In this document: positions 5,282 to 19,733 of the stretch, piece by piece
Layout: each line of letters starts with the position of its first letter
How positions within the stretch are numbered: position 1 is the first letter of the stretch
DNA from: a virus
Virus genome (UHGV): UHGV-0072741
Strand: one strand, 5' to 3'
Length of the DNA stretch: 21,480 nt
The notes under the pieces: model-generated
The model's database searches: none
The model's input: the letters and a program-made list of their open reading frames with translations, nothing else
Told to the model about the DNA's origin: nothing
Made by a program: the position numbers and the translations under genes

Positions 5282-5641
5282 TTACTCCTTAGAGCCACCA
5301 AACTTGTTACCGATTACTCGCATTGCAGCCCCACGAATAGCATCGACACCGATCAGCCCAACACCACCACCAATGGCAACAGAAAGCGATTTAGGCCATC
5401 CAACATACTCAAGAGCGGATGCAAAGGTCAGCGTCAGAGCACCACAGAGCAAAATCTCAAGCGTTTTTCGTTTCCAGCCGCCGCCACCGCCAAAATAGGC
5501 AATGCGCAAACCAGCCATAACAATTGACATAACCACTGCGCCCAACGGCGTATCTCCACGCCACCAACTTTGTAAGAGTTCCAGTAAGTCAGGCCAGGAA
5601 TGAGGAGCATTGTGCATTTTCATACTTCCCACCTCCGCCAT
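5282..5641 (-). CDS. Holin
   Basis: 119-aa ORF directly upstream of the endolysin with hydrophobic segments and a glycine-rich stretch; several N-terminal Met codons (MAEVGSMKMH) allow a possible dual start. Confidence 0.7.
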   Translation of the reverse strand: MAEVGSMKMHNAPHSWPDLLELLQSWWRGDTPLGAVVMSIVMAGLRIAYFGGGGGWKRKTLEILLCGALTLTFASALEYVGWPKSLSVAIGGGVGLIGVDAIRGAAMRVIGNKFGGSKE

Positions 5642-9152: not shown

Positions 9153-9272
9153 TGCTTTCACCTCATACAATTTTAGTGGTATTTAGCAACAACAAACGAG
9201 GTTTGTCAAATACAACAAAAATTGTTTTTAATGTGGGGATACACATTAATACAACCCAGAAGGACTAATCCC
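9153..9272. promoter_or_regulatory. Divergent promoter/operator region between the cro-like and cI-like genes (OR-like)
   Basis: Perfect palindromes ACAAAC-gag-GTTTGT (9192..9206) and AACAA-aaa-TTGTT (9214..9226) in a 120-bp AT-rich intergenic region between divergent HTH genes. Confidence 0.5.
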
Positions 9273-9896
9273 ATGTCTCTCGCAGCCCGTTTTAAAGCAC
9301 GTCGTTTGGAATTAGGAATGACTCAAGTGGAAGTAGCGAATTCTGCAGGGGTTAGCCAACAATCCATAGAATCCATCGAAAGTGGACGAACCAGAAAGCC
9401 ACGCAATCTTCTGGATCTGGCTAAGGCCTTGAAATGTAGCCCAGACTGGCTACTGAACGGTAAAAATATTATGCCTCTCACAGAGATAAGTACCAGACGC
9501 ATACCTATATTAAGCTACGTTCAGGCAGGAGAGCTTACAGAAGCAAGAGACATAACAGATCTGACAGGGGAATTTGAATATATTTTGGCAGACTCTGACA
9601 TTCCAGAAACATGCTTCGCATTACGTATTGATGGCGACAGCATGCAACCAGAGTTTAAAGAAGGAGACATTGTTATCATCGATCCTGATCTATGTCCTGC
9701 ACCAGGGGAGTTTGTTGTCGCCAAAAACGACGGTCACGAAGCTACATTTAAAAAATACCGTCCATTAGGAATCGGCATCGACGACTTTGAATTAATCCCC
9801 CTAAATCCTGATTACCCTATTTTTCGTAGTGCAGATATGAACTTACAGATCATAGGTGTAATGATCGAACACCGTATTTACCGCCGTAAACGTTAG
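9273..9896 (+). CDS. cI-like repressor: N-terminal HTH plus C-terminal S24 (LexA-like) self-cleaving peptidase domain
   Basis: HTH MTQVEVANSAGVSQQSIESIE; Ala-Gly cleavage site in YVQAGEL; catalytic Ser in GDSMQP and a downstream Lys. Start at the ATG preceded by AGGA; the ORF-track start at 9222 is a TTG. Confidence 0.85.
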   Translation: MSLAARFKARRLELGMTQVEVANSAGVSQQSIESIESGRTRKPRNLLDLAKALKCSPDWLLNGKNIMPLTEISTRRIPILSYVQAGELTEARDITDLTGEFEYILADSDIPETCFALRIDGDSMQPEFKEGDIVIIDPDLCPAPGEFVVAKNDGHEATFKKYRPLGIGIDDFELIPLNPDYPIFRSADMNLQIIGVMIEHRIYRRKR

Positions 9897-13485: not shown

Positions 13486-13665
13486 ATGTCACAGCCCGTA
13501 TTAACTAATCACCTTAAAACTCAAATCATCAATAACGCACTTGAGAAAGCGGGTATCCCCAAACGTAAATCAGCACTACGAGCTGCTCGTGTTGAATGGG
13601 CCGAACGTGTTCGGCTTGCAGCTATCGGGGGCGTAGAGAAAGAAGCTGAAATATTAAAAAAATAG
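13486..13665 (+). CDS. Hypothetical small protein
   Basis: ORF beginning MSQPVLTNHLK with GAGGGA upstream; the ORF track extends it to 13456. Confidence 0.4.
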   Translation: MSQPVLTNHLKTQIINNALEKAGIPKRKSALRAARVEWAERVRLAAIGGVEKEAEILKK

Positions 13666-13733
13666 AAACACTGGTATCAAAATTCCCCGAAGCATTAAAA
13701 ACCGCCAATAATATTATCAGGAAAGAGTGTTAC

Positions 13734-14114
13734 ATGTGTCTGAATCTGGCAGGTTCTCGGGTTACCGTCTATTTCAACGGTAACTATCGAGGATATGAAT
13801 CAGGGTCACCAGACCATATTCACAAAATCGCGCCGGGGGAATTTACCCTTCTGGCAAATGACCCTCTAGTTACAGAGTTTTACGGGTTTGATGCACTTTA
13901 TGAGCAGATACAGAGCGATGAGTCAGACATTCGACAGAATGTCAGCGCTGCACTCAGTAAAGTGCGCACAGTTAAGCGCCTGCTGGAAGAGTGGCCTGAA
14001 GCTAAAGAACTTCTGCCAGCCGATGCACCATCTGCTCCGCTTCCGCCAGCTATACGACGCGAAACTCTCAACGAAATGATCGGCCTCCCTTCTGACGAAG
14101 GGGTAGATGCTTAA
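13734..14114 (+). CDS. Hypothetical protein, 126 aa
   Basis: ORF with AGGAAAGAG RBS; no recognised motif. Confidence 0.5.
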   Translation: MCLNLAGSRVTVYFNGNYRGYESGSPDHIHKIAPGEFTLLANDPLVTEFYGFDALYEQIQSDESDIRQNVSAALSKVRTVKRLLEEWPEAKELLPADAPSAPLPPAIRRETLNEMIGLPSDEGVDA

Positions 14115-14181
14115 TATTTCTTATAACAAAGGCTGGCTTAAGAAAATAGTTATCCAAACCAGCCTACCGCAATACTAAAAA

Positions 14182-14451
14182 TTAAAATTCATTGAATTTA
14201 AAAAGACATTTCCCTATTGGATTGCCATAGTCTCTACATACCGAAATGCTGTCCCATACAGGCTGAGCCAAACACCCAAGAAAGAACCCAATAAGCGCAA
14301 AAATTATAATTTTGGGAAGAACACGATCCTTAGGACCTTCTTCACGTTCGAGCCATGCGCCACCAGCCCGAACTATTCTCCCTAAAATATAAAGAATGGG
14401 GAAAGCAATAATACCTATCAATGAAAGTATTCCGATACCAAAGCTAAACAC
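14182..14451 (-). CDS. Small two-helix membrane protein (89 aa) on the opposite strand inside the plus-strand operon
   Basis: GTG start with a perfect AAGGAG 6 nt upstream; two hydrophobic helices (FGIGILSLIGIIAFPILYILG; IIIFALIGFFLGCLA) and a cysteine-containing C-terminus; sits in a local AT-rich island. Confidence 0.5.
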   Translation of the reverse strand: MFSFGIGILSLIGIIAFPILYILGRIVRAGGAWLEREEGPKDRVLPKIIIFALIGFFLGCLAQPVWDSISVCRDYGNPIGKCLFKFNEF

Positions 14452-14507
14452 CGCCGTCTCCTTGTTTATTTACACCTACATAACCATATATCACACAAGG
14501 TTATTTT

Positions 14508-16571
14508 ATGTCCAATATACTATGGGGTGACCTAGAAACCTATTGCGAAATCCCTATTACGAACGGTACCCATGCGTATGCCGAAGGCGTTGAAGTGATG
14601 CTTTTCGCATGGGCTATCAACGACGGGCCAGTAAATGTGTGGGATATCACTGCCGGTGGTGGTATTCCACACGGCTTATACGAAGCAATCGCAGACCCTG
14701 AAACCCTGCTTTATTTCCATAACTCTCACTTCGACCGCACCGTTCTGCGTTATGCAATGCCGCGACTGGCACCGCCAGTCGAACGTTGGCGCGACACGAT
14801 GGTGCAGGCGCTGGCGCACGGTCTCCCGGGGTCTCTGGGGGAACTCTGCGAAGTACTAGGCGTCCCGCAAGACAAAGCGAAGGACAAAGAAGGTAAAGCG
14901 CTGATCCAGCTGTTCTGTAAGCCACGCCCGAAAAACAGCAAACTGCGTCGGGCCACCAGTAAAACCCACCCGGAAGAATGGCGGCGCTTTGTTGCTTACG
15001 CCGGACTGGATATCGAGGCAATGCGCGAAGTCTATAAACGTCTGCCGAAGTGGAATTATCAGGGGACAGAACTGGCGCTCTGGCATCGTGATCAGCAGAT
15101 CAATGACCGGGGCGTCTGCATGGACATGCAACTCGCACGCGCTGCGATCGAAGCGGTAGACCAGGAACAAAAGCGCCTGGCAAAGCGTACACAGGAAATG
15201 ACTGATGGCGAAGTGCAGGCAGCCACACAACGAGACGCGTTGATTAAGCACATTGTTGAATCCTACGGTGTGGAGCTACCAGACATGCAACGCAGTACTC
15301 TGGAACGTCGTATTGCCGACCCCGATTTACCATCTGCCGTGAAAGAACTGCTGGCTATCCGACTGCAGGCCAGTACTACCAGCACCAGTAAATACAAGGC
15401 ACTGATGAAAGGCGTAAGCCACGACGGGCGCTTACGCGGTACGCTACAGTTCTGCGGGGCGTCACGTACCGGTCGTTGGGCCGGACGGCTATTCCAGCCC
15501 CAGAATCTTCCCCGCCCTTCACTAAAACAGGAACAAATAGACGAAGGCATCGAAGCACTGAAAGCCGGATGTGCAGACCTGCTGTTTGACAATATCATGG
15601 AACTAACCAGTTCAGCGTTACGTGGCTGCATTATCGCGCCAACAGGCAAAAAACTGGTGGTAAGTGACTTGTCGAACATTGAAGGCCGTATGCTGGCATG
15701 GCTGGCAGGAGAAGAATGGAAACTGAATGCATTCAGAGAGTACGACGCCGGAACGGGTTCGGACTTATATAAACTGGCGTATGCAAAAGCTTTCGATATT
15801 ACACCAGATGATGTTGATAAACACATGCGTCAGATCGGTAAAGTCATGGAACTCGGTCTGGGTTATGGTGGTGGTGTGTCGGCCTTCATCACTTTTGCAC
15901 TGGTTTACGGTCTCGATCTCGACGAGCTGGCGAACGCCGCACTACCAAACATTCCCCGCGATGTTATCCGCGAGGCGAAAAGCTGGTACGACGAATCGGT
16001 TAAACGCAAGTCAACCTACGGGCTTTCTGAACGGGTATTTATCGCCTGCGACTCACTTAAACGTCTCTGGCGCCGGGCGCATCCCGCGACCTGTGATTTC
16101 TGGTACGAACTGGAGCGCACCGTCCGCACTGCAATCGCCACACCGCAAAAAACATTGTATTGCGGTTATCTTAAAATCCGCCGCGATGGCGCGTGGCTGC
16201 GCATACAGCTACCATCCGGACGCGCTGTATGCTACCCGTCTCCGGTTATCGAAAAAGGGAATATCACCTACATGGGGGTTAACTCTTATTCGCGTAAATG
16301 GCAACGACTCAAAACCTACGGCGGAAAGCTGGTGGAGAACGTTACCCAGGCGGCCGCCCGCGACGTTCTGGCCGGAAACATGCCGCTTATCGAAGATGCC
16401 GGTTACAGCATTGTGCTGACGGTACACGACGAGGTGATAACCGAAGCACCTGACACAGAAGATTTCAACGATAAAGCGCTTTCCGCGCTTCTCTCCAATA
16501 ACCCCGAATGGGCGCCCGATATCCCACTGAACGCTGGCGGTTTTGAGGCGTACCACTACCGTAAGGATTAA
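14508..16571 (+). CDS. Family A DNA polymerase (PolA-type, with N-terminal exonuclease-like region)
   Basis: Family-A motifs: DLSNIEGR (motif A-like), [16 protein letters not shown] (motif B), VHDEV (motif C); 687 aa. Confidence 0.9.
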
Positions 16572-16576
16572 CTCCT

Positions 16577-16792
16577 ATGTCATTAAAATACTGGGACAAT
16601 CCACTTTATTACAGGGCTGCAAGGGAGGCTTTGCGACTTGAACAATCCGGCGAATATGACCGGGCAGCGAAGGTCTGGGCAAAAGCCAACCGCGAATCAC
16701 ATCACGAACTGAATCAGGAATGGAGTGAACGCAGATCTGATTTTTGCCTGATGCAGAATATGCGTGAAAAGCGTAAGGCGGTCGAAGAATGA
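16577..16792 (+). CDS. Small hypothetical protein (71 aa); possibly an ANR-like small regulator
   Basis: ORF with AAGGA RBS right after polA; W/R/C-containing helical pattern loosely reminiscent of the ANR family. Family assignment is a guess. Confidence 0.4.
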   Translation: MSLKYWDNPLYYRAAREALRLEQSGEYDRAAKVWAKANRESHHELNQEWSERRSDFCLMQNMREKRKAVEE

Positions 16793-17088
16793 TCGTTTAC
16801 GTTGCCGGGCCGATGAGCGGTTACGAGCAATTTAACCGCCCGGCTTTTCATTCCGCAGCAAAGAGGCTAACGGACAAGGGATATGTTGTGCTTAACCCCG
16901 CAACTTTACCCAATGGTTTGACACAGGCTCAGTATATGGACATCTGCCTCGCAATGCTTCGCTGTGCCGATACGATTTATATGCTCAAAGAGTGGGAGTA
17001 CTCTGCTGGCGCACGTGCAGAACACGCGTTGGCAGAGAAACTGGAATTGAATGTGCTTTTTGAAGAGTGGGATTCAGATGGCCTATGA
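16789..17088 (+). CDS. DUF4406-family protein (nucleoside 2-deoxyribosyltransferase-like)
   Basis: N-terminal MIVYVAGPMSGYEQFNRPAF matches the conserved DUF4406 start pattern; overlaps its neighbours by 4 and 11 nt. Confidence 0.6.
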   Translation: MIVYVAGPMSGYEQFNRPAFHSAAKRLTDKGYVVLNPATLPNGLTQAQYMDICLAMLRCADTIYMLKEWEYSAGARAEHALAEKLELNVLFEEWDSDGL

Positions 17089-17347
17089 ACGTGAAAGCCT
17101 TATCGAAAAGCACCTCGTCGCTGAAGTGAAAAAAGCTGGCGGAGTGGCCTTTAAGTTTGTATCTCCCGGTCACCGCTCGGTACCAGATCGCATTGTCCTG
17201 CTACCCGGTGGTCGTATCGTTTTCGTTGAATGTAAATCCCCCGGCAAACCACCACGACCTGACCAGTTGCGCACACATAAACGTCTGCGAAAGCTGGGCT
17301 TTACCGTGGTGGTACTGGATAGCAAAGATCTGGAGGAGATTATTTAA
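17078..17347 (+). CDS. VRR-NUC domain nuclease
   Basis: PDRIVLLPGGRIVFVECKSPGKPPRPDQ contains the D...E.K nuclease motif; ATG at 17078 overlaps the DUF4406 stop; the ORF track starts earlier at 17051. Confidence 0.7.
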   Translation: MAYERESLIEKHLVAEVKKAGGVAFKFVSPGHRSVPDRIVLLPGGRIVFVECKSPGKPPRPDQLRTHKRLRKLGFTVVVLDSKDLEEII

Positions 17348-18099
17348 AAAGATAGATGCCAGGTATCATCAAAACAATGCCTATAAAAGTTTATTTTTGC
17401 TTCATCTTTAACTCTTCTAAACTTCATTTTGGCATCATATGGAATCAGCACAAAATCTTTGTCGTATTCATCACAACGACCCAGAATGAAACCGTTACTA
17501 CTTTTAGAAAGTAGTATAAATGGAGCATCAGTTGTAGTTGAGAGCTCATTCTCACCGTTGTCAAATTCCGGATAAGAGACTTTATCGGATGATGAATTAA
17601 CGAATCCTGCAAGAAATGATAGCAGCAGTAGACATGTTGTCCCAATGATAGCGGAAGAAAATTTACCTATCAGTATAGATTTAAAAACATCGCTCCAAAC
17701 TACAATCATGATTATGAACACAACAACAATAATACCAAGACACACAAGGAAAATCGCTTTACCACTATAAATCAATAAGTACAGTTCTTTAGGGTTGAAA
17801 ACATTAAAGGTATAAACGCCTAAGATCCATATTGAGTAAACACCAGTAATAAGAAACCATATGAGCGACGTTCTTTTTGACAAGCCAAACCAAAAAACAC
17901 AAAGAAGCGGTAAAAATATCGTCAATATTTTAAATGAAGTTATAAGAATAATATTGATATTTATATCAATAAACTCTACAGGGTATTCAAAATAATAACT
18001 CTCCCCAAGCAAATAAGCATATGTCAAAATATAAAGCAATGCCGAAATAGTAGATATTGATGACAAATCCTTGAGGAATTCTCTAGCCGTAATTTTCAT
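17344..18099 (-). CDS. Multi-pass membrane protein of unknown function (251 aa); AT-rich moron and candidate accessory/defence gene
   Basis: About five predicted transmembrane helices followed by an ~80-aa soluble C-terminal domain; opposite strand to all neighbours; strongly AT-rich (by eye roughly 30% GC versus about 50% around it); has its own promoter. Confidence 0.65.
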   Translation of the reverse strand: MKITAREFLKDLSSISTISALLYILTYAYLLGESYYFEYPVEFIDININIILITSFKILTIFLPLLCVFWFGLSKRTSLIWFLITGVYSIWILGVYTFNVFNPKELYLLIYSGKAIFLVCLGIIVVVFIIMIVVWSDVFKSILIGKFSSAIIGTTCLLLLSFLAGFVNSSSDKVSYPEFDNGENELSTTTDAPFILLSKSSNGFILGRCDEYDKDFVLIPYDAKMKFRRVKDEAKINFYRHCFDDTWHLSF

Positions 18100-18130
18100 T
18101 ATATTTACTCAAAGTTATGTTAATGAGAAT

Positions 18131-18158
18131 ATTATATGTTCATCCAACACAGTTTCAA
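18131..18158 (-). promoter_or_regulatory. Near-consensus sigma70 promoter for the membrane-protein moron, overlapping the SNF2 helicase start codon
   Basis: Minus-strand reading TTGAAA-16 nt-TATAAT, about 31 nt upstream of the moron ATG; the -10 hexamer (forward 18131..18136) abuts the helicase ATG at 18136. Confidence 0.45.
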
Positions 18159-19536
18159 ACCTAGACTTTACCAAAATCTCATTATCAACCACGAGACCAA
18201 CACTCTGCGCGGCAATATCTGGGCAGGTATGGGAATGGGAAAAACCGTAGCGACACTCACCACGCTGGAAGATCTCTTCATGGCAGGGGCAGAAACACGC
18301 CCAGCGCTGGTCCTCGCGCCGCTGCGCGTGGCTGCCAGCACATGGCCGGATGAAGCACTGAAGTGGGGGCATTTGCGCAATATCGAGGTGCAGCCAATTA
18401 TTGGTAATGCCAAAGCGCGCTCTATGGCGCTGGCGAACAGCAACGCAAGCGTGTTCACAATCAACTACGATAACCTTGTCTGGCTGGTTGAGGAATTGGG
18501 AGAACGATGGCCGTTCGGTACTGTCATTCCAGATGAAAGCACCCGGCTAAAATCCTTCCGGCTGCGAGGTGGTGGTAAGCGCGCGGCGGCGCTGGGCAAA
18601 GTGGCGCATAAGTATGTCCGGCGCTGGATAAATCTCACCGGTACGCCAGCACCGAACGGCCTGGTAGATTTGTGGGGACAATCGTGGTTTGTGGACCAAG
18701 GGCAACGTCTCGGGCGCACTTACGGCGCGTTTACCTCACGCTGGTTCAACTCGATACAGTTTCCGGGACAGAGCTGGACTAAACTGGAACCTTTTGCTCA
18801 CTCACAGGGTGAAATACAGCGAGCATTAGCCGATGTGACCCTCTCGCTGGATGCGGCCGACTGGTTCGATATCAAAGACCCCATCCATAACGTAATCCGC
18901 GTGGATATGCCCCCGAAGGCCCGTCAGCAGTATCGTGAAATGGAAAAGGAAATGTTCCTCGAGCTGAATGGCGAAGGCATCGAAGCACCGAACGCCGCGG
19001 CAAAGACACTGAAGTGTCTTCAAATCGCTAGTGGCGCAGTATACACAGACGACACCGGAAGTTGGTCAGAAGTGCATGACACCAAACTACAGGCGCTGGA
19101 CAGCATACTGACCGAAGCAGCTGGCGTACCTGTGCTGGTTGCTTATCACTGGAAACACGATCTTGAACGCTTGCTTAAAGCATTCCCTCGCGGTCGTCAC
19201 CTCGACCAGGATCCACAGACACTGCGCGACTGGAATTCCGGAAAGATTCCTGTTCTCTTTGCACACCCAGCCAGCGCGGGCCACGGCCTGAACATGCAGG
19301 ACGGCGGAAATATACTGGTATTTTTCTCACACTGGTGGGACCTGGAGCAATATCAGCAAATTCTTGAACGTATCGGCCCCACCAGGCAGATACAGGCCGG
19401 ACACAATCGTCCGGTATTTATTCACCACATTATTGCTGCCGACACTATGGACGAAATGGTGATGGAGCGGCGCAACTCAAAACGAACAGTGCAGGACATC
19501 CTGCTCGATGCCATGAAAAAGAGAGGTATAGCATGA
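18136..19536 (+). CDS. SNF2-family (DEAD/DEAH-like) helicase
   Basis: Walker A GMGMGKTVATLT; DExx box VIPDESTRLK; 466 aa; tail of the replication module. Confidence 0.85.
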   Translation: MFIQHSFKPRLYQNLIINHETNTLRGNIWAGMGMGKTVATLTTLEDLFMAGAETRPALVLAPLRVAASTWPDEALKWGHLRNIEVQPIIGNAKARSMALANSNASVFTINYDNLVWLVEELGERWPFGTVIPDESTRLKSFRLRGGGKRAAALGKVAHKYVRRWINLTGTPAPNGLVDLWGQSWFVDQGQRLGRTYGAFTSRWFNSIQFPGQSWTKLEPFAHSQGEIQRALADVTLSLDAADWFDIKDPIHNVIRVDMPPKARQQYREMEKEMFLELNGEGIEAPNAAAKTLKCLQIASGAVYTDDTGSWSEVHDTKLQALDSILTEAAGVPVLVAYHWKHDLERLLKAFPRGRHLDQDPQTLRDWNSGKIPVLFAHPASAGHGLNMQDGGNILVFFSHWWDLEQYQQILERIGPTRQIQAGHNRPVFIHHIIAADTMDEMVMERRNSKRTVQDILLDAMKKRGIA

Positions 19537-19733
19537 GCGAGAAACCCGACGATTTACTCACCCCGGATGAAGTATGCCAAAAGTTAGGTATTACACAGAA
19601 AACGCTATGTGAGTGGAATATTAAGCATCGTCATCGGGCTATCCTGGCACCAATTCGTTTCAGTGCAAAAGTAGTTCGTTATGAGCGCCGCAATGTCGAC
19701 GCTTTTATTCAAAAGTGTCGCAGCCGGTATTAA
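19533..19733 (+). CDS. Excisionase-like / AlpA-type small DNA-binding protein
   Basis: 66-aa basic protein (LTPDEVCQKLGITQKTLCEWN...) with a winged-helix-like pattern; ATGA overlap with the helicase stop; lies next to the integrase. Confidence 0.55.
   Translation: MSEKPDDLLTPDEVCQKLGITQKTLCEWNIKHRHRAILAPIRFSAKVVRYERRNVDAFIQKCRSRY

What the first reader, a model, noticed from the sequence alone, without database searches (positions are those of the whole stretch)
17344..18158. AT-rich opposite-strand membrane-protein moron with its own near-consensus promoter, inserted between VRR-NUC and the SNF2 helicase
An ~800-bp block of markedly AT-rich DNA interrupts an otherwise tightly packed plus-strand replication operon. 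It encodes, on the opposite strand, a 251-aa protein with about five transmembrane helices and a soluble C-terminal domain that I cannot place in any family. A TTGAAA-16-TATAAT promoter sits just upstream, overlapping the helicase start codon. Compositional contrast, reversed orientation and autonomous promoter are the hallmarks of a lysogen-expressed moron, which in prophages is often a superinfection-exclusion or abortive-infection effector. This is my best candidate for an undescribed single-gene system.
Basis: partly seen in the sequence, partly recalled or inferred. Interest (0 to 1): 0.85.

Follow-up and report, generated by a model that had tools for sequence, protein, structure and literature searches.

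The report
Prophage membrane-protein cassette in a defence slot
An AT-rich, backwards-facing gene with its own strong promoter sits in a swap-prone slot of an E. coli prophage, where related prophages carry known anti-phage genes. It encodes an uncharacterised inner-membrane protein whose conserved parts face the periplasm, so it most likely keeps other phages out, but this has not been tested.

Summary
A 251-codon minus-strand ORF (17344-18099) lies in an approximately 0.8-kb block of 30-35% GC, with GC3 of 0.29 against 0.47-0.58 in the flanking genes. It is preceded by the only 11/12 sigma-70 match in the whole window (18158-18131).

The block is one allele of a polymorphic cassette, not a one-off insertion. 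159 of 5,426 complete E. coli genomes share the flanks at about 95-97% identity, and none carries this block. Their slots hold BstA, a PDC-S42 cassette, methyltransferases, Rha/Arc regulators, or a 236-aa distant homologue of this protein.

A profile search found about 70 relatives at 50% clustering. Every named one is from Enterobacterales and is annotated as hypothetical. Wherever a long contig could be read for relatives down to about 17% identity, the gene occupies the same VRR-NUC|SNF2 slot.

The protein has five transmembrane helices (AF2 pLDDT 87). It is predicted N-in, with a conserved periplasmic loop and an approximately 80-aa periplasmic beta-rich domain carrying two invariant cysteines. 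It is under purifying selection (dN/dS about 0.1) and survives in decayed prophages.

No known family, fold or defence model matches. My best reading, at 0.4 confidence, is a lysogen-expressed superinfection-exclusion protein that blocks phage genome entry. Function is untested.

The parts
17341..18168 (.). Variable cargo cassette between VRR-NUC and SNF2. The right edge includes the first 6-11 codons of SNF2.
   Evidence: blastn against E. coli relatives L009-L013: homology at 95-99% stops at 17340/17350 and resumes at 18153/18169. 0 of 159 flank-bearing E. coli genomes cover the middle. No blastn match to the block in 5,426 E. coli genomes.
17344..18099 (-). CDS of 251 aa (stop codon at 17344-17346): predicted inner-membrane protein of an uncharacterised Enterobacterales prophage superfamily.
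   Evidence: ORF. dN/dS is 0.07-0.11 against the Erwinia and Salmonella homologues. AF2 model pLDDT 87.3, pTM 0.86. 7 close homologues and 70 cluster representatives.
18131..18158 (-). Sigma-70-type promoter TTGAAA-16-TATAAT (-35 at 18158-18153, -10 at 18136-18131), overlapping the 5' end of SNF2.
   Evidence: Only site of 11/12 or better in the window, positional P about 0.002. TATAAT is conserved in 5 of 5 close homologues and is TACAAT in L014. Activity not tested.
18100..18130 (-). Short 5' leader with a weak Shine-Dalgarno-like GAG (18108-18110), 8 nt before the ATG.
   Evidence: Read directly from the sequence. This is inference.
17596..18060 (-). Membrane domain with five TM helices: residues 14-33, 48-70, 79-98, 115-137 and 147-168.
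   Evidence: AF2 helices and hydropathy. K+R is 5.9 on the N-terminus, loop 2 and loop 4 against 1.4 on loops 1 and 3, in 53 of 53 family members, which gives N-in and C-out.
17959..18000 (-). Conserved acidic and aromatic periplasmic loop 1 (residues 34-47, SYYFEYPVEFIDIN; family motif G-x-S-x-F-x-G-Y-P-x-x-F-I-x-x-D).
   Evidence: Near-invariant G32, P40 and I44 in the 53-sequence alignment. Mean K+R is 0.19 in this loop.
17347..17595 (-). C-terminal domain of about 80 aa, predicted periplasmic (four beta-strands plus two helices), with invariant Cys209 (17473-17475) and Cys242 (17374-17376).
   Evidence: AF2 secondary structure. C209 and C242 are the only invariant columns of A3. Exactly 2 Cys occur in this domain in 51 of 53 sequences. 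dN/dS is 0.02-0.04.
17078..17347 (+). Left flank: VRR-NUC / PD-(D/E)XK nuclease gene. Its stop codon overlaps the cassette gene's stop (TTAA at 17344-17347).
   Evidence: Pfam VRR_NUC and phrog_93. RefSeq homologues of 89 aa.
18136..19536 (+). Right flank: SNF2-family helicase gene. Its start codon and first codons overlap the cassette promoter.
   Evidence: Pfam SNF2-rel_dom and phrog_62 at E 4.6e-153.

Best explanation
The block is one allele of a polymorphic cargo cassette in a temperate prophage of the Enc34-SSB / PolA / SNF2 replication-module type. It encodes a 5-TM inner-membrane protein that is N-in and C-out. I propose the gene is transcribed from its own constitutive-type sigma-70 promoter while the surrounding early operon is repressed in the lysogen. 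The protein would then act from the periplasmic face of the inner membrane, through its conserved acidic/aromatic loop 1 and its probably disulfide-stapled C-terminal beta-domain, to stop superinfecting phages from delivering their genome. It could do this by occupying or jamming the inner-membrane step of ejection, either the phage's tape-measure or ejection proteins or the host channel they use. When the early operon fires, convergent transcription through the gene would dampen it.

- Shown: gene, promoter sequence, composition, cassette polymorphism, slot-mates, purifying selection.
- Predicted, not shown: topology and fold.
- Inferred: expression in lysogens, the disulfide, exclusion activity, target, transcriptional interference.
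For: 1. **The slot carries defence cargo.** In prophages with 94-97% identical flanks, the same opposite-strand position holds BstA (PADLOC E 1.4e-115), a PDC-S42 cassette (E 6e-40) and a TIR-like protein in phage vB_EcoM-606R2. BstA is an experimentally shown prophage defence (PMC8585504).
2. **The gene is dispensable for the phage.** Related prophages, and an isolated phage, lack it.
3. **Only the envelope is reachable.** No cytoplasmic domain exists. Short basic loops face the cytoplasm, and all conserved features (loop 1, the C-domain, the Cys pair) are on the predicted periplasmic side. The only invariant residues are the two cysteines, with no conserved Asp/Glu/His/Ser, which argues for binding rather than catalysis.
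4. **Allelic diversity is extreme at a fixed locus with conserved flanks.** Kluyvera: flanks 85-92%, cargo 48%. L014: 68-72% against 30%. E. coli L013: 94-95% against about 19%. P22 SieA shows the same pattern, with three types under 30% identical at one locus (PMC10883804).
5. **Selection is purifying within an allele.** dN/dS is 0.07-0.11.
6. **The gene survives when the prophage decays.** It is intact in an Erwinia remnant full of IS elements, and a Serratia relative is an orphan beside proBA, the att site used by the Salmonella prophage.
7. **The promoter is strong and conserved.**
8. **The locus architecture has a precedent.** P22 sieB is an antisense gene with its own promoter inside the early-left operon.
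Against: - There is no functional datum of any kind: no expression data and no phenotype.
- No homology to any known exclusion protein was found. hhalign probability is below 1% against P22 SieA and SieB, lambda RexB and HK97 gp15. No PADLOC model matches the protein or any of 53 relatives.
- Guilt by position is weak. The same slot also holds methyltransferases and Rha/Arc/Ant regulators, which are not host-defence genes.
- AT-rich DNA in Enterobacterales is often silenced by H-NS, so the promoter may not be active in lysogens.
- The topology rests on the positive-inside rule and an AF2 model, not on experiment.
- More distant relatives lack the Cys pair.
- No terminator was found.
- A precomputed Pfam label, PF27470 'TfpB', on two relatives points to a family I could not examine.
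Confidence: 0.4

Rival explanations
1. Envelope-level abortive-infection or membrane-effector protein. The protein senses phage attack at the inner membrane and then depolarises or permeabilises the cell, killing it before phage release. It would be like RexB, but with sensor and effector in one gene.
For: It is a multi-pass membrane protein with a possible oligomeric pore-like bundle. The slot carries the Abi protein BstA in relatives. As a single gene with a strong promoter it has the typical layout of small membrane Abi effectors.
Against: No charged or polar residues are conserved within the TM helices, and the near-invariant TM-adjacent residues are Gly and Pro. There is no homology to RexB or to any PADLOC effector. 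A constitutively expressed pore former would need tight gating, and no partner gene is present in the cassette.
Confidence: 0.15
2. Lysogenic-conversion or host-fitness factor unrelated to phage defence. Examples: orphan immunity to a membrane-acting bacteriocin or contact-dependent toxin, an envelope-stress or surface-property modifier, or a colonisation factor.
For: The gene is retained in decayed prophages and as an orphan in Serratia. The conserved surface is periplasmic. It is AT-rich with its own promoter, like colicin immunity genes (own knowledge). Allelic diversity would also fit toxin-specific immunity.
Against: No toxin gene and no glycosyl- or acyltransferase partner lies in or next to the cassette. 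No catalytic residues are conserved. The slot-mates are anti-phage genes rather than virulence or immunity genes.
Confidence: 0.2
3. Homologue of type IV pilin accessory membrane proteins (TfpB / TfpY / FimB-like) that binds pilin-like inner-membrane proteins. It would modulate a pilus or type II secretion filament, possibly to remove a phage receptor.
For: A precomputed Pfam label PF27470 'TfpB' sits on two superfamily members: P0044 at E no more than 1e-5 and P0031 weakly. TfpY-like proteins are of similar length (235-245 aa), are N-in, and have a periplasmic C-terminal domain that contacts pilins (PMC11841053).
Against: The architecture differs: 5 TM and an 80-aa C-domain here, against 3 TM and a two-sheet domain of about 140 aa (PMC11841053). 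No member seen lies next to a pilin gene. The A3 profile found nothing in 1,323 ORFs around 80 type IVa pilin genes (best E 0.095). hhalign gave 0.1% probability against two pilin-adjacent 3-TM proteins, which I presume (not confirmed) to be TfpY-like. I could not check what PF27470 is built on.
Confidence: 0.1
4. Accessory function in the phage's own life cycle, such as membrane anchoring of replication, control of lysis timing, or establishment of lysogeny, rather than a benefit to the host.
For: The family is the commonest and apparently ancestral occupant of the slot across divergent prophages. The gene is embedded in the replication/recombination operon.
Against: It is replaced by unrelated cargo in closely related prophages and in an isolated phage. 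It is transcribed against the operon from a sigma-70 promoter. It is retained after the rest of the prophage is lost. The lysis genes lie elsewhere (holin at 5282-5641).
Confidence: 0.1

Closest known systems
P22 SieA (superinfection exclusion A)
   Same: It is prophage-encoded and sits on the opposite strand with its own promoter, tucked against a conserved operon. It is a multi-pass inner-membrane protein without enzymatic motifs. It exists as several sequence types under 30% identical at the same locus, and it blocks DNA delivery at the inner membrane (PMC10883804).
   Different: There is no detectable homology (hhalign probability 0.14%). SieA is 162-164 aa with 3 TM helices, its best-conserved motif is predicted cytoplasmic, and it has no periplasmic globular domain. 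The protein here is 251 aa with 5 TM helices and conserved periplasmic parts. SieA's function is demonstrated, whereas the function here is not.
P22 / lambda SieB locus
   Same: The locus layout is identical in kind: a gene antisense to the early-left (recombination / int-proximal) operon, driven by its own promoter.
   Different: There is no homology. SieB acts as an Abi-type system with a self-protection product (Esc), and no such second product is evident here.
HK97 gp15 moron
   Same: It is a textbook moron in a conserved operon, encoding a small inner-membrane protein that blocks phage genome entry (annotated 'moron product'; mechanism from own knowledge of Cumby et al. 2012 and 2015).
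   Different: gp15 is 62 aa, has a single TM helix, lies on the same strand as its operon and has its own terminator. There is no homology.
BstA (prophage abortive-infection protein)
   Same: It occupies exactly the same VRR-NUC|SNF2 slot, on the opposite strand, in E. coli UPEC957C and 07_3722 prophages. It is a single-gene prophage defence (PMC8585504).
   Different: BstA is a soluble DNA-binding protein that acts at replicating phage DNA. It is unrelated in sequence and in cellular location.
Conjugative entry-exclusion protein TraS (own knowledge)
   Same: It is a small, AT-rich, highly allele-specific inner-membrane protein that blocks incoming DNA by recognising a component of the donor's transfer machinery. 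Conceptually this is the closest analogue for an allele-diversified entry block.
   Different: It belongs to a plasmid system rather than a phage system, and it was not compared here by sequence. It serves as an analogy only.
TfpY / FimB-like type IV pilin accessory proteins (and Pfam PF27470 'TfpB')
   Same: They are similar in length, are N-in membrane proteins with a periplasmic C-terminal domain, and have no recognisable catalytic domain (PMC11841053). The PF27470 label sits on two relatives.
   Different: They have 3 TM helices rather than 5 and a larger two-sheet C-domain, and they are always adjacent to a pilin gene. No homology to pilin-adjacent candidates was detected. No member of this superfamily was seen next to a pilin gene.

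Membership tests
Moron (autonomous cargo unit in a phage operon, sensu Hendrix/Juhala) | Present in some and absent or replaced in other closely related phages, between the same two conserved genes | tested here: met
   159 E. coli genomes share the flanks and 0 carry the block. At least 7 alternative cargos were seen.
Moron (autonomous cargo unit in a phage operon, sensu Hendrix/Juhala) | Nucleotide composition different from the neighbouring genes | tested here: met
   GC 0.33 against 0.50-0.54, and GC3 0.29 against 0.47-0.58.
Moron (autonomous cargo unit in a phage operon, sensu Hendrix/Juhala) | Own promoter | tested here: met
   An 11/12 sigma-70 match at 18158-18131, unique in the window. 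The -10 hexamer is conserved in 5 of 5 close homologues. This is sequence evidence only, and activity was not tested.
Moron (autonomous cargo unit in a phage operon, sensu Hendrix/Juhala) | Own factor-independent terminator | tested here: not met
   The stop codons of the cassette gene and VRR-NUC overlap at 17344-17347. The only terminator-like site on the minus strand is weak and lies 216 nt downstream inside VRR-NUC (17128-17111).
P22 SieA family | Sequence homology to SieA types A-C | tested here: not met
   hhalign of the 53-sequence profile against P22 SieA: probability 0.14%.
P22 SieA family | Blocks phage DNA injection without affecting adsorption | not testable with these tools
   This needs infection assays.
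SieB / RexB / HK97 gp15 exclusion proteins | Sequence homology | tested here: not met
   hhalign probabilities of 0.28%, 0.26% and 0.21%.
Any system in PADLOC-DB v2 | Match to a defence-protein HMM | tested here: not met
   No hit for the protein at E no more than 1. No consistent hit among 53 relatives.
phrog_35408 (unknown function) | Match to the PHROG profile | tested here: inconclusive
   32 of 53 superfamily members match (best E 1.6e-45). The window protein itself does not match at E no more than 0.01. It is linked only through the superfamily profile.
Pfam PF27470 'TfpB' | Score above the gathering threshold against the Pfam model | not testable with these tools
   The model is absent from the local Pfam copy, and the scan of all 53 members shows no TfpB. 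Only precomputed labels exist, on P0044 (strong) and P0031 (weak).
TfpY / FimB-like pilin accessory proteins | Gene immediately downstream of a type IVa major pilin gene | tested here: not met
   The 11 contexts read are a prophage slot, a prophage remnant, an orphan beside proBA, or another mobile element. None has a pilin neighbour.
TfpY / FimB-like pilin accessory proteins | Three TM helices plus a two-sheet periplasmic domain; homology to pilin-adjacent accessory proteins | tested here: not met
   Five TM helices and an 80-aa domain here. The A3 HMM found nothing in 1,323 ORFs at 80 pilin loci. hhalign gave 0.1% against two pilin-adjacent 3-TM proteins. This is a limited test, because the identity of those two proteins as TfpY-like is inferred from position and architecture.

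The most novel reading that the evidence does not exclude
The superfamily (about 70 clusters at 50% identity; every named member is from Enterobacterales and every informative context read is a prophage or another mobile-element setting) would be a new class of allele-specific phage entry-exclusion determinants. Its disulfide-stapled periplasmic domain and conserved loop would recognise the ejection or tape-measure apparatus of incoming phages, as TraS recognises TraG in conjugation. Recombinational swapping of whole alleles at the VRR-NUC|SNF2 slot would then be the footprint of an arms race between related temperate phages. The slot itself would be a previously undescribed defence hotspot of this prophage family.
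Probability: 0.2. Interest if true: 0.7.

Novelty: new member of a known kind. Interest (0 to 1): 0.5.

Why it matters
If the protein excludes phages, it adds a new family that is widespread in Enterobacterales and wholly unannotated to the short list of envelope-level single-gene exclusion proteins. It would come with a confident structural model, a predicted periplasmic recognition domain and a natural series of alleles for specificity mapping.

Independently of function, the work defines a cargo hotspot in a common E. coli prophage type, present in 159 of 5,426 complete genomes. This VRR-NUC|SNF2 slot already holds BstA, PDC-S42 and TIR-like genes. Two further slots, after PolA and between SSB and PolA, hold TIR/PDC-S35 and SIR2/PDC-S25. 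The remaining unknown cargos, such as the DUF6338 pair and the two partners of PDC-S42, become candidates by position.

The idea that prophage hotspots carry defence genes is not new. It is established for P2/P4, lambdoid, mycobacterial and Pseudomonas prophages.

Tried and rejected
**Family libraries**
- Pfam, PHROGs and PADLOC on the protein gave nothing.
- Pfam, PHROGs, PADLOC and NCBIfam on all 53 relatives gave only phrog_35408, of unknown function.

**Structure and fold**
- A PDB sequence-profile search gave nothing.
- AF2 with 7 sequences was poor, at pLDDT 54. With 53 sequences it was good, at 87.
- The afdb50 library was not available.

**Similarity searches**
- blastn of the block against 5,426 E. 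coli genomes found no match.
- tblastn of the protein against phages and plasmids found no match.
- tblastn of three relatives against phages found no match.
With the close family it found 3 IMG/VR contigs and none in the GTDB representatives.

**Known exclusion proteins and the TfpB lead**
- hhalign against SieA, SieB, RexB and gp15 was negative.
- Literature searches on TfpB did not clarify what PF27470 is.
- 80 pilin loci were fetched and scanned with the family HMM, without a hit.

**Other checks**
- Rfam on the window found nothing.
- There are no repeats at the cassette boundaries, so no sign of site-specific insertion. Exchange is presumably by homologous recombination in the flanks.
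- Three metagenomic relatives sat on contigs too short to give context.

**Readings considered and rejected**
- A spurious ORF in AT-rich DNA is rejected by dN/dS of about 0.1 and by conservation.
- An O-antigen-modifying enzyme is rejected because there are no catalytic residues and no partner genes.
- A holin or antiholin is rejected because the lysis cassette lies elsewhere.
Full report
**1. Observation**

The window is a temperate prophage. On the minus strand it carries portal, small terminase, holin, antiterminator Q and a VapE-type primase. It also has an S24/HTH repressor at 9222-9896. A plus-strand early operon follows: DUF2800/PD-(D/E)XK, Enc34-type SSB, Nmad5, family-A DNA polymerase, PerC/ANR, DUF4406, VRR-NUC, SNF2 helicase and HTH_17. 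It ends at a minus-strand tyrosine integrase.

Inside that operon, the ORF 17344-18099 (-) encodes 251 aa. GC falls to 0.30-0.35 over 17401-18200, against about 0.50-0.58 on both sides. GC3 is 0.29 against 0.47-0.58 in the flanking genes, so the bias is not just a by-product of a hydrophobic protein.

The promoter TTGAAA-16-TATAAT lies at 18158-18131 (-). It is the only match of 11/12 or better on either strand of the whole window. In 2,000 Markov simulations of the cassette, such a site fell in the 70 nt upstream of the start codon in 0.2% of cases. The -10 hexamer abuts the SNF2 ATG, and the -35 hexamer lies in SNF2 codons 6-8.

**2. A polymorphic cassette, not a one-off insertion**

Megablast of 16500-19600 against 5,426 complete E. 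coli genomes finds the flanks in 159 genomes, mostly at 95-97% identity. None covers the middle. The block itself has no blastn match in those genomes and no tblastn match in phage or plasmid collections. Homology to five relatives ends at 17340/17350 and resumes at 18153/18169. No repeats mark the boundaries.

In the relatives, the same slot holds the following cargo, mostly on the opposite strand:

| Cargo in the VRR-NUC\|SNF2 slot | Evidence |
|---|---|
| Three-gene cassette, largest protein matches PADLOC PDC-S42 (E 6e-40) | |
| BstA (E 1.4e-115, full length) | |
| DUF6338 protein plus a small ORF | |
| Dcm-type methyltransferases | |
| Rha/Arc/Ant regulators | |
| Two plus-strand genes, one TIR-like, in phage vB_EcoM-606R2 | |
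| A single 236-aa membrane protein (frequent) | |

All these cargos are AT-rich, with GC of 0.28-0.45.

**3. The protein family**

A word-indexed search of 5.8 billion proteins found only seven homologues: E. coli 100%, Erwinia rhapontici 92%, Salmonella 81%, and Kluyvera and metagenomic sequences at about 48%. Each sits in the same slot, between a VRR-NUC gene of about 90 aa and SNF2, on the opposite strand, next to the integrase of the same prophage type.

The 236-aa E. coli alternative is a distant homologue. BLASTP gives E 7e-7 over the N-terminal 59 residues, and the two share an 'NGxFxLGxC' motif in the C-terminal region. A profile of both groups, searched exhaustively against 1.84 billion cluster representatives, gave 70 hits at E no more than 1e-3. 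Nearly all are 228-265 aa and match over their full length.

Every member that carries a name is a 'hypothetical protein' from Enterobacterales: Serratia, Yersinia, Proteus, Providencia, Pantoea, Izhakiella, Leclercia, Lelliottia and Enterobacter. Members at 17-30% identity (P0031, P0033, P0037 of Proteus) again occupy the same slot. So the family is an old resident of this slot, and the window carries a rare allele: its cluster has four member sequences on five contigs, and none of the 5,426 complete E. coli genomes carries it.

**4. Evolutionary behaviour**

The cargo diverges far faster than its flanks:

| Comparison with the window | Flank identity | Cargo identity |
|---|---|---|
| Kluyvera | VRR-NUC 85%, SNF2 92%, PolA 86% | 48% |
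| L014 | 68-72% | 30% |
| L016 | 73-80% | 28% |
| E. coli L013 | 94-95% | about 19% overall |

The last case can only be whole-allele replacement. Within an allele lineage the gene is under purifying selection. dN/dS is 0.10 against Erwinia and 0.08 against Salmonella, and 0.02-0.04 in the C-terminal domain.

Two cases suggest retention after prophage decay.
- In Erwinia rhapontici the SNF2 gene is broken, IS elements and an integrase fragment lie nearby, and the 251-aa gene is intact.
- In Serratia a relative (P0044) is an orphan directly after proBA, the site where the Salmonella prophage is integrated. It still has GC of 0.33.

**5. Structure and topology**

With the 53-sequence alignment, AlphaFold2 gives pLDDT 87.3 and pTM 0.86. 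The model has helices at 14-37, 48-70, 79-98, 115-140 and 143-171, plus a short helix at 103-111. These are followed by four beta-strands (177-219) and two short helices (233-250).

K+R counts are 5.9 on the N-terminus, loop 2 and loop 4, against 1.4 on loops 1 and 3. The inequality holds in 53 of 53 sequences. This places the N-terminus in the cytoplasm, and loop 1 and the C-terminal domain in the periplasm.

The only invariant columns of the alignment are Cys209 and Cys242. Exactly two cysteines occur in that domain in 51 of 53 sequences. G32, P40, I44 and G165 are nearly invariant, and loop 1 carries the motif G-x-S-x-F-x-G-Y-P-x-x-F-I-x-x-D. A periplasmic disulfide is the simplest reading, but it is an inference because I could not measure the distance in the model. 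More distant relatives keep the architecture but lack the cysteines.

No acidic, histidine or serine residue is conserved family-wide, which argues against an enzyme.

**6. Comparison with known families**

Family-library and PDB sequence searches gave no usable match beyond phrog_35408 (details in Tried and rejected).
- phrog_35408, of unknown function, matches 32 of 53 relatives but not the window protein.
- Three fold searches returned only generic helical hairpins and weak hints of small barrels. The AlphaFold-database library was unavailable.
- Profile comparisons with P22 SieA and SieB, lambda RexB and HK97 gp15 are all negative.

Functionally and architecturally, the closest analogues are these.
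- The P22 sieB locus is an antisense gene with its own promoter inside the early-left operon.

**7. An unresolved lead**

Precomputed Pfam labels attach PF27470 'TfpB' to P0044 (strong) and P0031 (weak). The local Pfam copy lacks that model. From memory, tfpB is an ORF beside the pilin genes of Moraxella, and it may belong with the TfpY/FimB pilin accessory proteins. Those are N-in, have three TM helices and a periplasmic C-domain, and contact pilins (PMC11841053).

I tested this indirectly. I fetched 80 loci around type IVa pilin genes. The family HMM found nothing in their 1,323 ORFs, with a best E of 0.095. Two mutually homologous 3-TM proteins lying directly downstream of pilin genes gave hhalign probabilities of 0.1%. 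None of the contexts seen for the superfamily has a pilin neighbour. The lead is therefore not supported, but it is not closed.

**8. Interpretation**

What is shown:
- a real, selected gene;
- a near-consensus, positionally conserved promoter;
- deviant composition;
- a cassette-type polymorphism at a slot that also carries validated (BstA) and candidate defence genes;
- dispensability for the phage.

What is predicted is a five-TM inner-membrane protein whose conserved surfaces face the periplasm, with no cytoplasmic domain.

What is inferred is that the gene is expressed in the lysogen while the surrounding operon is repressed, and that it acts at the envelope. Because only the periplasmic face and the membrane are available to it, the most economical mechanism is superinfection exclusion at the genome-entry step. 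I put this at 0.4 confidence. Whole-allele diversity would then reflect specificity for different incoming phages.

The rivals are:
- an envelope-triggered abortive-infection effector (0.15);
- a non-defence lysogenic-conversion or toxin-immunity factor (0.2);
- a TfpB/TfpY-like filament accessory protein (0.1);
- a role in the phage's own life cycle (0.1).

Caveats:
- there is no expression or phenotype data;
- H-NS may silence the AT-rich DNA;
- there is no terminator;
- the slot also carries non-defence cargo.

**9. Verdict**

The 'insertion' is better described as a rare allele of an ancient, rapidly exchanging cassette family. 'Undescribed single-gene system' remains a hypothesis.

It is a good experimental candidate and defines a useful prophage hotspot. 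Conceptually, though, it falls within a known kind: prophage-borne cargo at defence hotspots, and membrane exclusion proteins. Interest is 0.5.

Noticed in passing
window 13486-14099: The Nmad5 gene appears frameshifted. The 212-aa Salmonella homologue aligns to 13486-13659 in one frame (residues 1-58) and to 13650-14099 in another (residues 59-208). The break is at an A-run near 13650-13660. This could be a pseudogene, a sequencing error or slippage.
   Followed up: partly
window 16571-16577; L028:426-1187; L025:2375-3136; L003:9438-9917: There is a second cargo slot directly after the DNA polymerase gene. It is empty in the window. In E. coli relatives and in phage vB_EcoM-606R2 it holds a TIR-domain protein (PADLOC PDC-S35, E 1.7e-109). 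In Salmonella it holds an HNH protein.
   Followed up: partly
window 14115-14507; L016:12781-14283; L030:10794-12296; L004:12054-12737; L008:11303-11833: There is a third cargo slot between SSB/Nmad5 and PolA. In L016 and L030 it holds a SIR2_2 protein; the L016 one matches PADLOC PDC-S25 at E 2e-156 (the L030 one was not scanned). In Kluyvera and L008 it holds unknown opposite-strand genes. The window has a 390-nt gap there, with an unmatched 89-aa minus-strand ORF at 14182-14451.
   Followed up: partly
L001:7042-9022 (Erwinia rhapontici GCA_017875455.1): This is a prophage remnant. SNF2 is broken into fragments, IS110 and IS3 transposases and an 88-aa integrase fragment lie nearby, and the 251-aa gene (92% identical) is intact with dN/dS 0.10.
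   Followed up: yes
L032:7001-7786 (Serratia): Superfamily member P0044 stands alone directly after proB-proA, with no prophage genes around it. That is the integration site used by the related Salmonella prophage (L003). It keeps GC of 0.33 and carries the precomputed Pfam label PF27470 'TfpB'.
   Followed up: partly
L011:2354-3066 (E. coli A34): The 236-aa-type membrane gene is annotated as two ORFs of 71 and 166 aa, so it is probably disrupted in this lysogen. A 166-aa truncated form recurs in Salmonella records (P0020).
   Followed up: no
window 17344-17347 and 17111-17128: The stop codons of the convergent cassette gene and VRR-NUC overlap in a TTAA, and there is no intergenic terminator. 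Transcription from the cassette promoter should therefore run antisense into VRR-NUC and DUF4406. The only terminator-like hairpin is weak, at 17128-17111 (-).
   Followed up: partly
L037:7001-7753: A distant relative (P0114, which lacks the Cys pair) lies in a different mobile-element setting. It sits beside a serine recombinase, an N6-adenine methyltransferase and a DUF87 ATPase.
   Followed up: no
L009:2353-3124; L028:1763-2634: Unannotated partners of known or candidate defence genes sit in the same slot. Two small proteins (176 and 82 aa) accompany PDC-S42, and a DUF6338 protein (195 aa) has an 86-aa partner. None has a PADLOC hit.
   Followed up: partly
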